Shown here: piece by piece, positions 3,213 to 63,250 of the stretch
Position numbering within the stretch: position 1 is the first letter of the stretch
Layout of the letters: each line of letters begins with the position of its first letter
DNA from: Nitrospirota bacterium
GTDB lineage: Bacteria; Nitrospirota; Thermodesulfovibrionia; Thermodesulfovibrionales; Dissulfurispiraceae
NCBI GenBank assembly: GCA_963790025.1
Contig: CAWBMP010000005.1
Location: 416,001-480,000 of the forward strand
Direction: 5' to 3'
Length of the DNA stretch: 64,000 nucleotides
Made by a program: the position numbers and the translations under genes
The notes under the pieces: generated by a model
Seen by the model: the letters and a program-made list of their open reading frames with translations, nothing else
Told to the model about the DNA's origin: nothing
Database searches by the model: none

Positions 3213-4280
3213 ATGAGAATAGAGGATAAAGAAATTGGGCCTTTGTCTCCTGAAGCTGAGGACCAGGAGGAGATAACTTATGAGAATAATCTGCGGCCCC
3301 GCTCACTTGATGAATTTATCGGACAGCAGAGGACCAAAGAGAACCTGAAGGTTTTCATCGCCGCTGCGGCCCTCAGGAAGGAGCCCCTTGACCACGCACT
3401 TTTTTTTGGGCCGCCTGGACTAGGCAAAACTACTCTTGCCACGATCATAGCCAATGAGTTGGCTGTGAATATTAAGAGCACATCCGGCCCGGTACTCGAA
3501 AGACCAGGTGATCTGGCAGCAATATTGACCAATCTTGCCGACCGCGACATACTGTTTATTGATGAGATCCACCGGCTGCCGAGAATTGTGGAAGAGGTGC
3601 TATATCCTGCCATGGAAGACTTTAACCTTGACATTATTATAGGTCAGGGCCCCAATGCGCGGACGTTAAAGTTGAACCTCCCTCGTTTTACGCTGGTAGG
3701 GGCCACCACCCGTACAGGACTCTTAACTTCGCCGCTGCGTGACCGGTTTGGCGTCATATGCAGACTCGAGTTTTATACGCCTGAGGAGTTGAAAGAAATA
3801 ATTGGACGGTCCTCGCACCTGCTTGAAATGCAGATAAAAGAGGATGCGGCCATCGAGATTGCAAGGCGATCACGAGGCACGCCCAGGATAGCTAACAGGC
3901 TGCTCAAGAGGATCAGGGATTTTGCCCAGGTTAAAGGGGATGGCGGCATAAACATGACGATAGCGAGAGAGGCCCTGACAGCACTTGAAGTTGACCATCG
4001 CGGCCTTGATGAAATCGATAGAAAATTGCTTCGCACCATCATGGATAAGTTCAATGGCGGCCCGGCCGGTGTTGAGGCCATTGCTGCCTCTATGAGGGAG
4101 GACCGGGAAACTATTGAAGATGTGTATGAGCCGTATTTGCTTCAGGAGGGTCTGATTGAGCGGACGGCGCGGGGAAGGCTTGCTACGAGATTGGCCTACG
4201 AGCATTTAGGGAAAAAGCCGCCTCGAGGGTTGTCCAAAAAGTCACAAGATTTTTTGGGGGACCCGGACGGCCTCTTCTAA
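3213..4280 (+). CDS. ruvB: Holliday junction branch migration helicase RuvB
   Basis: [12 protein letters not shown] Walker A, FIDEIHR, SRGTPR, EPYLLQ. Confidence 0.98.
4231..4264 (+). repeat. In-frame palindromic element, copy 1 (AAAGTC...GGGGACCC family)
   Basis: tgtccaaaaagtcacaagattttttgggggaccc; aligns with 63007-63040 and the reverse complement of 54163-54190. Confidence 0.7.
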
Positions 4281-52748: not shown

Positions 52749-53978
52749 ATGGACCTTCCTTATCCGTTTTTTATCGCCTTACGGTACCTGAAGTCGAAGG
52801 GACAGCACAAGGGTGTTTCGTTCAATACCGTCATCTCCATAAGCGGGGTTGCTGTTGGAGTAATGGCGCTGCTTGTCGTGCTGTCGGTAATGAGCGGCTT
52901 CCAGGAGGACCTCCAGAGAAAAATTCTGGGCGCCAATGCGCATGCGATCGTCCAGAGTTACCGCGGCGCAATAGACGATTACTCACAGCTGATCACAAGG
53001 CTCAGCGGCCAACCGCATGTAGTTTCTGTTTCACCTTTTGTTATCGGCCAGGTGATGGTGACAAACGGCCATAAGGCCCACGGGGTTTTTTTGAGGGGAA
53101 TAGATCCTGTATCGGAATACGCTACGACCGACCTTTTGAAACATATTGTCTCCGGCACCAGCGCAGACCTTACGAATAAAAATGGTGTGCCCTGGATAAT
53201 TATCGGCAACGAGCTGGCATCGATGCTCGGGGTGATGGCAGGCGATAATATCTCCATTGTTTCACCGGTCGGTGAAATGGGACCTCTCGGAATGCTGCCT
53301 AAAGTGAGGCAGTTCAGGGTTGCCGCTATTTTTCAGATGGGTATGTTTGAGTATGATTCCAGCCTCGTCCTGACCGGTATGGATGCTGCCCGGAATTTCT
53401 TTGGGCTCGGAAATTCCGTTTCCGGTATCGAACTGCGTCTTGATGATATTTATAAGGCCCCGGAGGTGCGCGAATCTGTGACATCAATGCTCGGTTTTCC
53501 CTATTATGTACGGGACTGGATGCAGATGAACCGGAACCTTTTTTCAGCCTTGAAGCTCGAGAAATTTGCGATGTTTGTAATACTGATCCTCATAGTGCTG
53601 GTAGCGTCGTTTAATATCGTCAGCACTCTCATGATGAGCGTCATGGAAAAACAGAAAGAGATCGCAATATTAAAGACCATGGGTGCAACTCATCAAGGCG
53701 TTATGGCGATATTCATGCTTCAGGGCCTGCTCATCGGTCTTGTCGGCACAGCCATAGGCGTATCCGGCGGCTTTATTCTGGGCAAAGTGCTTAACAACTT
53801 CGAGTTGATAAAGCTGCCGGCTGACGTGTACTATTTGAGCAAGCTGCCGGTAAAAATGAAGCTTATCGATTTTCTTGTTGTTTCCATTTCAGCCGTTGTG
53901 ATCAGCTTCCTCTCTACGCTTTACCCGTCATATTATGCCGCAAAATTGAACCCTGCTGAACCGCTGAGGTATGAATGA
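52749..53978 (+). CDS. lolE: Lipoprotein-releasing ABC permease (LolC/E)
   Basis: VLSVMSGF, LKLEK, VASFNIVSTL, EIAILKTMGA, PAEPLRYE. Confidence 0.92.
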   Translation: MDLPYPFFIALRYLKSKGQHKGVSFNTVISISGVAVGVMALLVVLSVMSGFQEDLQRKILGANAHAIVQSYRGAIDDYSQLITRLSGQPHVVSVSPFVIGQVMVTNGHKAHGVFLRGIDPVSEYATTDLLKHIVSGTSADLTNKNGVPWIIIGNELASMLGVMAGDNISIVSPVGEMGPLGMLPKVRQFRVAAIFQMGMFEYDSSLVLTGMDAARNFFGLGNSVSGIELRLDDIYKAPEVRESVTSMLGFPYYVRDWMQMNRNLFSALKLEKFAMFVILILIVLVASFNIVSTLMMSVMEKQKEIAILKTMGATHQGVMAIFMLQGLLIGLVGTAIGVSGGFILGKVLNNFELIKLPADVYYLSKLPVKMKLIDFLVVSISAVVISFLSTLYPSYYAAKLNPAEPLRYE

Positions 53979-54346
53979 TGTTCAGGTTTATTAGAACAAT
54001 TCTTCGTTTGTTTGTGGCAGCGCTGATTATCTTTTTTGCCTTCTCCATGTGGAAGGGCGGCGGGGAATTCAGGTGGTTCGGGGAGAAACTGGGTGAGAAG
54101 GCCGACGAGATCAAGTTAAAAAAAGATGAAGCCGTTGAAAAGATAAAAAAATTGACAGGCATGGGAGTCCCCGAAAAGTCACAGACTTTTAATAAACATC
54201 ATGTCAAAACGGATGAAACTTCGAAGAAAAAGACAAAAGAGACCGACCCTGAAGTTGTCGGGGGAGGCAGTGATGAAAATAAGCCGTCAGAAAGTTTATG
54301 GGACACTATATGGAAAAAGATGAAAGCGCTGATGCAAAAGGCTTAA
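53975..54346 (+). CDS. Hypothetical membrane-anchored protein inserted between lolE and lolD
   Basis: ATGA overlap; N-terminal TM; Lys/Glu-rich. Confidence 0.7.
   Translation: MMFRFIRTILRLFVAALIIFFAFSMWKGGGEFRWFGEKLGEKADEIKLKKDEAVEKIKKLTGMGVPEKSQTFNKHHVKTDETSKKKTKETDPEVVGGGSDENKPSESLWDTIWKKMKALMQKA
54163..54190 (-). repeat. In-frame palindromic element, copy 2 (reverse orientation)
   Basis: Reverse complement AAAAGTCTGTGACTTTTCGGGGACTCCC. Confidence 0.65.
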
Positions 54347-62203: not shown

Positions 62204-63250
62204 ATGATAATTGAAGATCTGAGACAGAAATTCCTGAATGAGCTTGCGTCCATTACCAATGCTGCTGATCTTTTTCAGCTTAGAGTCAATTATCTGGGCA
62301 AAAAGGGGGCAGTCACTACGGCGCTCAAGGCGCTATCTTCGGCATCTCCGGAAGAAAGGCCGCTTCTCGGCAAAAAGATAAACGATGTAAAACAATTCAT
62401 TGAAGACCAGCTTGCATCAAGAGAGACATTACTAAAAAACGAAGCGTTGAAAAAACAATTGCTGGCAGATTCCATTGATATAACGCTGCCCGGCAAATAT
62501 AACGCTTTCGGCAAAGAACATCCTATTAATAAAGTGCTTTTTGAGATAGTGGACATTTTTGTAAGGATGGGATTCAGTGTTGAACAAGGGCCGGAAGTGG
62601 AACACGATTATTATAACTTCGAGGCACTGAATTTCCCCCGGGAACATCCGGCCCGGGACATGCAGGATACCTTTTTTGTCAGTGATGATATTGTACTCAG
62701 GACCCATACATCTCCGGTTCAGGTCAGGGAAATGGAAAAAAGAAAGCCCCCTGTCAGGTTTATTGCTCCCGGCAAGGTGTACCGTTGCGATGCCGATATT
62801 ACGCATACTCCCATGTTCCATCAGGTCGAGGGGCTTATGGTGGACAAGGATATCACCTTCAGCAATTTGAAAGGGATACTTGAAGCATTTCTTCACACGA
62901 TGTTCGGTCCCGGTACTCCGGTGCGGTTCAGGCCGAGTTTTTTCCCTTTCACCGAACCCTCTGCAGAGGTCGATATAGGTTGCATACTGTGTGGAGGTTC
63001 CGGCTCTGCCCCAGAAAGTCTTCGAGTTTCCGGGGACCCCTGCAGGGTTTGCAAAGGATCAGGGTGGCTTGAAATCCTCGGTGCCGGTATGGTTGACCCG
63101 GCAGTTTTTGGATATGTCGGATATGATACGGAAGTATATTCGGGGTTTGCCTTCGGGATGGGGATTGAAAGGATCGCAATGCTGAAATACTCGATTGACG
63201 ACATCCGGTTGTTTTATGAGAACGATGTCAGGTTCCTGGGGCAATTTTAG
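62204..63250 (+). CDS. pheS: Phenylalanyl-tRNA synthetase alpha subunit
   Basis: [42 protein letters not shown]. Confidence 0.98.
63007..63040 (+). repeat. In-frame palindromic element, copy 3, inside pheS
   Basis: tgccccagaaagtcttcgagtttccggggacccc; encodes [11 protein letters not shown] between two CxxC motifs. Confidence 0.7.

What the first reader, a model, noticed from the sequence alone, without database searches (positions are those of the whole stretch)
63005..63040. A ~34 bp palindrome is inserted in frame in PheS, RuvB and a hypothetical protein
Seen: pheS tgccccagaaagtcttcgagtttccggggacccc adds about 12 aa ([12 protein letters not shown]) inside the usual CxxCGGxG-CxxC knuckle. 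ruvB 4231-4264 tgtccaaaaagtcacaagattttttgggggaccc adds [13 protein letters not shown] third copy lies inverted at 54163-54190. The consensus is CCC(A/G)(A/G)AAAGTC-N3-5-GA(C)TTT-GGGGACCC, read in different frames and orientations. Known: Rickettsia palindromic elements insert in frame in coding genes. Inference: this is an analogous, much shorter coding-tolerant element.
Basis: partly seen in the sequence, partly recalled or inferred. Interest (0 to 1): 0.8.

Follow-up and report, generated by a model that had tools for sequence, protein, structure and literature searches.

The report
Twelve-codon hairpin repeat inside genes
A 36-base hairpin-forming DNA repeat has copied itself about forty times through this bacterial genome, often landing inside working genes such as pheS, where it adds roughly twelve amino acids; this behaviour is already known from Rickettsia and other bacteria, seen here in a new repeat family and bacterial group.

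Summary
The pheS segment at 63005-63040 is a clean 36-nt (12-aa) insertion. It is absent from PheS of all 29 relatives that gave a match, 8 of them in the same genus.

It belongs to a dispersed family, GCA-CCCC-RRAAAGTC-NNN-GACTTTYY-GGGG-ACCCCG. The family has 37 loci (43 copies) in this 3.45-Mb genome and a 12-bp stem supported by covariation.

- The inverted copy at 54162-54200 is a 5'-truncated member.
- The ruvB copy is an old, decayed relic shared by 4 of 9 genus genomes.

The unit is about 36 nt, so 12 codons, and is usually open in five or six frames. 21 of 37 loci lie inside Pfam- or orthologue-supported coding sequence, including CoaX, HypD, a histidine kinase, an ABC ATPase, RsmI, L4 and AroC.

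The family occurs in all 9 genus genomes searched and patchily in the order. It was not found elsewhere in the phylum sample. The same hairpin turns up in some Clostridia, Aquificales and Betaproteobacteria assemblies.

No transposase gene is flanked by it, so the mobilising enzyme is unknown.

Short REPs and RPEs translated inside genes are already in print (PMC3733652). This is a new member of a known kind, of moderate interest.

The parts
63005..63040 (+). Element copy inside pheS: a 36-nt in-frame insertion coding [12 protein letters not shown] (PheS residues 268-279), between the two CxxC pairs of the Cys knuckle. Its hairpin is partly degraded (GAGTTT in place of GACTTT).
   Evidence: E=1.5e-7; absent in 29 of 29 relatives; the empty site reads GGC|TGCAGG; absent in PDB 4p71; weak fold, z -1.2.
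62204..63250 (+). pheS (phenylalanyl-tRNA synthetase alpha subunit, 348 aa), host gene of the copy.
   Evidence: ORF. Pfam tRNA-synt_2d 1.3e-102, Phe_tRNA-synt_N 2.2e-21.
54162..54200 (-). Element copy in inverted orientation, truncated at its 5' (left outer) arm. It is read as GVPEKSQTF in the variable middle of a small protein.
   Evidence: E=1.7e-7; the peptide is absent from the 8 genus orthologues aligned, which vary greatly in length there.
53975..54346 (+). Hypothetical 123-aa protein with a hydrophobic N-terminus and a low-complexity middle; host of the inverted copy.
   Evidence: ORF; no Pfam family; matches in 8 of 9 other genus genomes.
4224..4265 (+). Decayed relic of the element forming a 14-aa extension ([14 protein letters not shown]) of the RuvB C-terminal tail, after the RuvB_C domain.
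   Evidence: the tail is filled in G000, G005, G007 and G009 and empty in G002, G003, G004, G006 and G008; the G007 version still reads like the consensus; only E=1.2 and 14.6 bits, so not significant alone.
3213..4280 (+). ruvB (Holliday junction helicase, 355 aa), host of the relic.
   Evidence: RuvB_N 6e-80, AAA_lid_4, and RuvB_C ending at residue 332.

Best explanation
The three sequences belong to one family of very small, non-autonomous, hairpin-forming mobile repeats of the REP kind.

The unit is about 36 nt: GCA, a 12-bp stem (CCCCRRAAAGTC / GACTTTYYGGGG) around a 3-nt loop, then an ACCCCG tail.

Shown:
- The family is dispersed, with 37 loci in this genome.
- The stem is kept by compensatory changes.
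- Copies appear as clean insertions relative to orthologues.
- Some insertions are unique to this genome (pheS, coaX, hypD, a histidine kinase, an ABC ATPase). Others are shared by part of the genus and are decaying (ruvB, rplD, rsmI).

Why genes tolerate it:
- The unit is 12 codons long.
- It usually has no stop codon in five or six frames.
- It codes Gly/Pro/Ser/Lys-rich peptides.
- It survives in loops, linkers, termini and cleaved leader peptides.

Inferred, not shown: it spreads as a single-stranded hairpin that a trans-acting enzyme recognises, most plausibly one of the genome's HUH Y1 (IS200-like) transposases. The strand beginning GGGGTCCCC would be the active one, and insertion would leave no fixed target duplication. 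I give the Y1 step itself only about one chance in three.
For: Family and significance:
- nhmmer gives 88 rows, which reduce to 53 loci at E<=2 and 43 copies at E<=0.08. The CM gives 44 matches.

Hairpin:
- 87.3% of 441 cells are paired, against 30-62% when partners are slid.
- 6 of 12 pairs change on both sides.
- 0 of 500 shuffles reach the observed covariation score.

Clean insertions:
- PheS 36 nt, absent in 29 of 29 relatives.
- CoaX 39 nt, absent in 4 of 4; HypD 36 nt, absent in 4 of 4.
- Histidine kinase 42 nt, absent in 3 of 3; ABC ATPase 51 nt, absent in 5 of 5.
- L4 tail 36 nt, filled in 4 genomes and empty in 2; RuvB tail filled in 4 and empty in 5.
- RsmI filled in 4, empty in 1, and half-deleted in 1.
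- A 36-nt insertion also sits in non-coding DNA, nested in a 125-nt MITE.

Unit and frames:
- The unit ends are set by the information profile.
- 16 of 43 copies are open in six frames and 17 of 43 in five. Random 39-mers give 4.5% and 21.5%.
- All six frames are used in host proteins.

Location and spread:
- 21 of 37 loci lie in supported coding sequence.
- The family is in 9 of 9 genus genomes at 18-62 matches each, and is patchy beyond.
- Insertions are polymorphic in both directions: relatives' copies face gaps in G000.

Single-strand hint:
- The GGGGTCCCC-first strand folds better in 28 of 39 copies. A canonical copy gives -10.1 against -7.9 kcal/mol as DNA.
- 11 Y1_Tnp ORFs are in the genome.
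Against: No enzyme is tied to the element.
- None of 8 Y1 loci in G000 has a copy within 1.5 kb.
- Only 1 of 10 Y1 loci in five element-rich genomes has one, about what chance gives.
- Y1 genes were found in 15 of 17 genomes with 5 or more copies, but also in 8 of 14 with 2 or fewer. These genomes are related and not independent.

Orientation gives no help. It shows no consistent link to the replication strand: 14 of 43 copies lie on the G-rich strand, with contigs disagreeing.

The junctions are not uniform.
- PheS and L4 share CT|element|CTGCAG.
- The kinase target already resembled the tail (GGGGACNCNGGTGT), which ends up duplicated.
- HypD shows no duplication.

Translation of the inserts is inferred from intact frames only. 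No RNA or protein data were available.

The PheS model is only moderate (mean pLDDT 72).
Confidence: 0.8

Rival explanations
1. A minimal MITE. The two stem arms are back-to-back terminal inverted repeats of a DDE-type insertion sequence, moved by cut-and-paste with a short target duplication.
For: The element is essentially two inverted 12-16-nt arms. PheS and L4 junctions can be read as a 2-nt CT duplication around a 34-nt element. The genome holds at least one classical MITE with 17-nt inverted ends.
Against: HypD shows no duplication and the kinase shows a 14-nt one. No longer element with the same ends turned up in the nhmmer or CM hits. Both ends carry asymmetric, conserved unpaired tags, GCA and ACCCCG. 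One strand folds better than the other.
Confidence: 0.12
2. Spread by copying rather than transposition. Template switching or short-patch gene conversion would place a copy at sites that happen to resemble the element's own ends.
For: The kinase target in relatives already reads GGGGACACTGGTGT or GGCGATCCCGGTGT, like the tail, and the tail is duplicated after insertion. About 7 solo loci have an ACCCC or GGGACCC box just upstream. PheS, L4 and FliK copies are all followed by CTGCAG, which resembles the CTGCA head. Arrays are all head-to-tail.
Against: HypD, RuvB and the MITE-nested insertion show no such similarity. The same facts fit a transposase whose target resembles its own right end.
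Confidence: 0.18
3. A host-useful DNA or RNA signal, such as a protein-binding site, terminator or mRNA stabiliser, kept by selection, with the intragenic copies incidental.
For: The stem is conserved by covariation. G-U or G-T pairs favour one strand. Two-copy arrays sit just before two pseudopilin genes. REPs elsewhere bind proteins and stabilise mRNA, a hypothesised role according to the abstract of PMC3733652.
Against: Copies lie in either orientation relative to host genes, 8 same and 15 opposite by my tally. Positions are not conserved between close relatives. Shared copies decay. No Rfam family matches.
Confidence: 0.1
4. A selected peptide motif, with function at the protein level, rather than a DNA element.
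For: The peptides are similar in several hosts: GVPEKSQTF in CoaX and the hypothetical protein, GSPESRRLSG in several others.
Against: All six frames are used, giving unrelated peptides. Copies also lie between genes and inside a MITE. The hosts have nothing in common functionally.
Confidence: 0.02

Closest known systems
Intragenic REPs of the GTAG and CGTC superfamilies (Di Nocera, De Gregorio and Rocco 2013, PMC3733652). I read the abstract, sections 5 and 15, discussion passages, and rows of supplementary file 3.
   Same: Palindromic repeats of 20-40 bp, dispersed and grouped into sub-families by compensatory stem changes. G-T pairing favours one strand. Some units lie wholly inside ORFs of known proteins, tRNA synthetases among them, at N-termini, C-termini and internal sites. 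The CGTC class likewise has no flanking transposase gene.
   Different: There is no GTAG or CGTC tag; the ends here are GCA and ACCCCG. The stem is 12 bp with a 3-nt loop. Arrays are head-to-tail, where the paper finds head-to-head dimers usual and head-to-tail ones rare. More than half of the loci lie in coding sequence, where the paper finds most REPs intergenic. The host group, Nitrospirota, does not occur in that paper's main text.
Rickettsia palindromic elements (RPE). Ogata et al. 2000/2002 is recalled; I saw it only as cited in PMC3733652.
   Same: Palindromic repeats inserted in frame in unrelated, often essential genes without destroying them. They are lineage-specific and decay with time.
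   Different: According to PMC3733652, RPE-1 elements are 'longer palindromic insertions', while RPE-4 and RPE-6 are short CGTC REPs. This element is 36 nt, lives in a free-living anaerobe lineage, and has no demonstrated sequence relation to RPEs (not tested).
REPIN/RAYT systems (Bertels and Rainey 2011, PMC3116915; I saw the search listing and the start of the abstract only).
   Same: Short hairpin repeats thought to be moved in trans as single strands by an IS200-like Y1 transposase.
   Different: No inverted doublets (REPINs), no single-copy RAYT flanked by the repeats, and frequent intragenic location.

Membership tests
REP (repetitive extragenic palindrome), broad sense | Short (20-40 bp) imperfect palindrome, many dispersed copies, stem kept by compensatory change | tested here: met
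   36-nt unit, 37 loci, covariation.
REP (repetitive extragenic palindrome), broad sense | Predominantly extragenic location | tested here: not met
   21 of 37 loci lie inside Pfam- or orthologue-supported coding sequence. 3 more lie at uncertain N-termini. 13 are in unsupported ORFs or between genes.
GTAG- or CGTC-tagged REP superfamilies (PMC3733652) | Unpaired GTAG or CGTC tetranucleotide at one end; CGTC stems of 8-9 bp with A/T in the first two positions and a CCA-like tail | tested here: not met
   The conserved unpaired ends are GCA and ACCCCG, and the stem is 12 bp starting CCCC. ACCCCGTC occurs in only 3 of the 31 profiled copies.
REPIN/RAYT (REPtron) | Repeats flank a single-copy Y1 transposase gene | tested here: not met
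   0 of 8 Y1 loci in G000 and 1 of 10 in five element-rich genomes have a copy within 1.5 kb.
REPIN/RAYT (REPtron) | Units paired in inverted orientation (doublets) | tested here: not met
   All close pairs and arrays are head-to-tail: C3:201285/201324, C3:205147/205186, C4:712304 x5, C4:1365829/1365890, C4:758912/758976.
Rickettsia palindromic elements | In-frame insertion in functional protein genes | tested here: met
Rickettsia palindromic elements | Sequence relation to RPE-1 to RPE-10 | not tested
   No RPE sequence was fetched, and no Rfam family matched the hairpin.
MITE | Terminal inverted repeats with a fixed-length target duplication and a parent IS with the same ends | tested here: inconclusive
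   The arms are inverted repeats. Junction duplications are 2 nt (PheS, L4), 0 nt (HypD) and 14 nt (kinase). No parent IS was seen, but it was not searched for exhaustively.

The most novel reading that the evidence does not exclude
The hairpin would be a cross-phylum module. It is found, with all 25 specified bases of a 32-nt pattern (7 positions free), in assemblies labelled Nitrospirota, Clostridia, Aquificales and Betaproteobacteria. It would be moved by machinery that is neither a flanking RAYT nor the DUF559 nuclease proposed for other hairpin repeats. It would aim at sites that resemble its own ends. Its exact 12-codon length and stop-free frames would be an adaptation for living inside genes: a 'codon-phased' mobile element that continually tries out new surface loops in essential proteins.
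Probability: 0.12. Interest if true: 0.75.

Novelty: new member of a known kind. Interest (0 to 1): 0.4.

Why it matters
Annotators and people who compare proteins should know that many lineage-specific 12-17-residue insertions in this group are repeat DNA and carry no functional signal. Examples are the PheS Cys knuckle, CoaX, HypD, the ATPase domain of a kinase, and the tails of L4 and RuvB.

The family gives a dated series: unique, shared, decayed and half-deleted copies. That series lets one follow how selfish DNA becomes ordinary protein sequence.

The unit is 12 codons long and usually stop-free. That offers a simple reason why a mobile element can sit in more than half of its sites inside genes, in a genome with little non-coding space.

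The missing transposase and the presence of the same hairpin in distant phyla are the open questions.

Tried and rejected
- REPtron test. A CM search of the flanks of 8 Y1 transposase loci in G000 gave no real match; the best was 7.4 bits. Of 10 Y1 loci in G005, G006, G011, G016 and G026, one had a match, as chance would give.
- DUF559/Vsr-like partner, a lead from earlier notes of this scan. PF04480 was not found in G000, which is 98.8% complete.
- Genes between close copies. UDP-sugar dehydrogenase-like and MoaA-like ORFs (named by eye from the translations) lie between C4:1296954 and C4:1299649, nothing transposase-like.
- Rfam. No family covers the hairpin, only tRNAs and Gut-1 nearby in Clostridia loci.
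- Replication-strand bias. Not consistent between contigs.
- Orientation relative to host genes. 8 same and 15 opposite, not significant (tally).
- Phyletic link to Y1 genes. Weak and confounded by kinship.
- RNA evidence. No RNA holder was listed for the pheS stretch, and only three DNA runs held small shares of its words.
- Literature searches for the motif and for the phenomenon in this group found nothing specific.
- Filled-versus-empty junctions taken from relatives' copies. Most lay in poorly aligned intergenic DNA or belonged to a MITE carrying a nested copy, so they gave no clean target logo.
- L4 in G002 and G004. My script ran past the stop codon, so these two were not scored. G003's L4 is in pieces and was dropped.
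- Paralogous best hits were left out of the alignments: G005 and G008 for the kinase, G005 and G007 for the pseudopilin.

Full report
**What is at the three sites**

The window is G000:C5:416001-480000, in a 3.45-Mb assembly of 5 contigs with 47-48% G+C.

- At 63005-63040, inside pheS (62204-63250), the sequence reads TCTGCCCCAGAAAGTCTTCGAGTTTCCGGGGACCCC.
- At 4231-4266, in the last codons of ruvB (3213-4280), lies a looser palindrome ending GGGGGACCC.
- At 54163-54191 the reverse strand reads AAAAGTCTGTGACTTTTCGGGGACTCCC, inside a 123-aa hypothetical ORF.

**A real repeat family**

Simple patterns already pulled out dozens of look-alikes across the genome. A profile built from 14 strict matches and run with nhmmer gave 88 rows. 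These reduce to 53 loci at E<=2 and to 43 copies in 37 loci at E<=0.08.

| Copy | nhmmer E-value |
|---|---|
| pheS | 1.5e-7 |
| inverted copy | 1.7e-7 |
| ruvB | 1.2 |

- An alignment of 37 copies supports a 12-bp stem. 87.3% of 441 cells are paired, against 30-62% when partners are slid. 6 of 12 pairs change on both sides. 0 of 500 shuffles reach the covariation score.
- The outermost A/C position pairs as G-T or G-U only on the opposite strand. Accordingly, the strand that begins GGGGTCCCC folds better in 28 of 39 copies. A canonical copy gives -10.1 against -7.9 kcal/mol as DNA.
- The per-position information of 31 copies falls to background outside GCA...ACCCCG. The unit is therefore GCA + CCCC + RRAAAGTC + 3 nt + GACTTTYY + GGGG + ACCCCG, 36 nt in all.

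**Copies are insertions, and many lie inside genes**

PheS was found in 30 of 31 genomes searched. All 29 relatives, 8 of them in the same genus, lack the 12 residues between G267 and C280. The empty site reads GGC|TGCAGG. The solved P. aeruginosa enzyme (4p71) lacks them too.

An AlphaFold model of moderate quality (mean pLDDT 72) puts the insert between two strands with almost no regular structure. The 10-residue block 271-280, which overlaps the insert (268-279), has mean pLDDT 61, against 78 and 83 for the neighbouring blocks.

Pfam on 43 ORFs that span copies showed real host genes. Orthologue alignments then gave the following results.

| Host gene | Extra length in G000 | State in relatives |
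|---|---|---|
| CoaX | 39 nt | absent in 4 of 4 |
| HypD | 36 nt | absent in 4 of 4 |
| AroC | 8 residues, in a variable loop | longer than 4 of 5 relatives |
| Histidine kinase ATPase domain | 42 nt | absent in 3 of 3 |
| ABC ATPase | 51 nt | absent in 5 of 5 |
| Two 39-nt units before the G\|F site of a type II secretion pseudopilin | 78 nt | absent in 3 of 3 |

For the pseudopilin, the only start codon with a ribosome-binding site lies upstream of the repeats.

Older copies are shared by part of the genus.

- The L4 tail is filled in G000, G006, G007 and G009 and empty in G001 and G008.
- The RuvB tail is filled in G000, G005, G007 and G009 and empty in five genomes.
- RsmI is filled in G000, G002, G007 and G008, empty in G006 and half-deleted in G005.
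- The RuvB copies no longer score with the covariance model.

My tally over the 37 loci is as follows.

| Category | Loci |
|---|---|
| Inside coding sequence, checked against orthologues | 10 |
| Inside Pfam-supported ORFs (FliH, FliK, an outer-membrane efflux protein, a NuoL-like subunit, a TauE-like protein, a peptidase S51 protein, a BPL_N protein, the CbiX-CbiC linker, an AsmA-like protein, a pilin-like protein, and a multihaem cytochrome where five 42-nt units follow the signal peptide) | 11 |
| At N-termini whose start codon is uncertain | 3 |
| In unsupported ORFs or between genes | 13 |

**Why genes tolerate it**

- Five independent insertions are exactly 36 nt: PheS, L4, HypD, RuvB as seen in G007, and a copy nested in a non-coding 125-nt MITE. 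A bare unit never shifts the frame.
- 16 of 43 copies have no stop codon in any frame and 17 have a stop in only one. Random 39-mers of this genome give 4.5% and 21.5%.
- All six frames are used, giving Gly/Pro/Ser/Lys-rich peptides such as [43 protein letters not shown] and QGPRKVDKLFG.

**Distribution**

- A covariance model matched in 20 of 31 relatives at E<=0.01. All 9 other genus genomes carry it, with 18-62 matches each. Some other genera of the family and order carry many (64, 61, 88), and 11 genomes have none.
- In a sample of 151 genomes of the phylum it matched in 10, all of the same order.
Of the 80 loci listed, 55 carry Nitrospirota-type labels and 25 others. The others are Clostridia, two Chitinilyticum, a Burkholderiales MAG, an Aquificales MAG and two unclassified 'bacterium' assemblies.
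- One Clostridia MAG has 19 model matches and the Aquificales MAG has 5. There the hairpin is the start of a longer conserved non-coding repeat, often some 60-130 nt from a tRNA gene.

**Mechanism**

Shown:
- Copies arrive as insertions and turn over within the genus.
- The stem is maintained.
- One strand folds better than the other.
- Arrays are head-to-tail.

Not shown: the enzyme.

- G000 has 11 ORFs with the Y1 transposase domain, in five length classes.
- None of the 8 Y1 loci examined is flanked by a copy. The same holds for 9 of 10 in five element-rich genomes.
- Y1 genes were found in 15 of 17 genomes with 5 or more copies and in 8 of 14 with 2 or fewer. This is weak evidence, and the genomes are not independent.
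- DUF559, proposed as partner of other hairpin repeats in earlier notes of this scan, is not found in G000.
- Junctions vary. PheS and L4 share CT|CTGCCCC...GGGGACCC|CTGCAG, and a FliK copy is also followed by CTGCAG. The kinase target already resembled the tail, which is duplicated. HypD has no duplication.
- This fits an enzyme whose target resembles the element's own end, as in the IS200/IS605 family (established knowledge, recalled). It also fits homology-guided copying, but it does not fit a fixed-duplication DDE enzyme well.

I therefore commit to trans-mobilisation of a single-stranded hairpin, and rate the Y1 step at about one in three.

**Comparison with what is known**

Di Nocera et al. 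2013 (PMC3733652; I read the abstract, sections 5 and 15, discussion passages, and rows of supplementary file 3) describe the following.

- 20-40-bp REPs of the GTAG and CGTC superfamilies lying wholly inside ORFs, tRNA synthetase genes included.
- The short R. conorii RPE-4 and RPE-6 are equated with CGTC REPs.
- CGTC REPs have no flanking transposase gene.

The present family lacks both tags, has a longer stem, forms head-to-tail arrays and is mostly intragenic. I file it as a new member of that known kind, and not as a member of either tagged superfamily or of the REPIN/RAYT systems.

Searches for the motif and for such repeats in this bacterial group found no description. PMC12306157 mentions the group only in a genome table (one passage seen).

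**Verdict**

It is a new member of a known kind, with interest 0.4. The open points are the enzyme, the target rule, and why the same hairpin occurs in distant phyla.

Noticed in passing
L072:52-157 (G000:C4:758951-759056); also G000:C5:247796-247900 and L074 (G000:C4:1299577-1299680): A second repeat family: a MITE of about 125 nt with 17-nt inverted ends (GACGGTTTCGTAAAAAG...CTTTTTACGAAACCGTC) and about 8 copies in G000. Three of them carry a nested 36-nt hairpin element. In relative G005, 7 of the 15 loci fetched have a flank matching this MITE at 90-98% identity, so the composite has multiplied there.
   Followed up: partly
L195 (G000:C5:249351-250343) and paralogues: A unit of about 993 bp coding a 316-aa Y1 (IS200-like) transposase is present in 4-5 near-identical copies (97-98%). 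Another repeat starts right after it. Two identical 162-aa Y1 genes lie 1.2 kb apart on C2.
   Followed up: partly
L134:73-290; L316; L117:188-332: In gut and rumen Clostridia assemblies the same hairpin begins a longer conserved non-coding repeat (hairpin, then AGAGGAGG..., about 75 nt more). The repeat is often 60-130 nt from a tRNA gene and sometimes tandem, with a tRNA 3' fragment between units. In a Faecalibacterium MAG the Rfam motif Gut-1 lies next to it.
   Followed up: partly
L019:1361-1572 (G000:C4:712304-712511): Five perfect 42-nt units give a 5 x 14-residue repeat (QGPRKVDKLFGAEE) directly after the signal peptide of a multihaem cytochrome.
   Followed up: no
L033, L029 and L034 (G000:C5:531227-532793): A left half-copy (C5:531227) and a right half-copy (C5:532755) bracket aroC, which itself holds a full copy. 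Both halves are weak matches (E 0.26 and 0.4), so this may be chance or the trace of a rearrangement.
   Followed up: no
L030 and L031 (G000:C5:559815-562565): The aminopeptidase N gene is bracketed by two copies in inverted orientation. One lies at codons 7-19 and the other 13 nt after the stop codon.
   Followed up: no
L023, L024, L037 and L025 (G000:C4:1352606-1365929): Five strong-to-weak copies cluster in and around cobalamin-synthesis genes (CbiX-CbiC, CbiD, a BPL_N protein).
   Followed up: no
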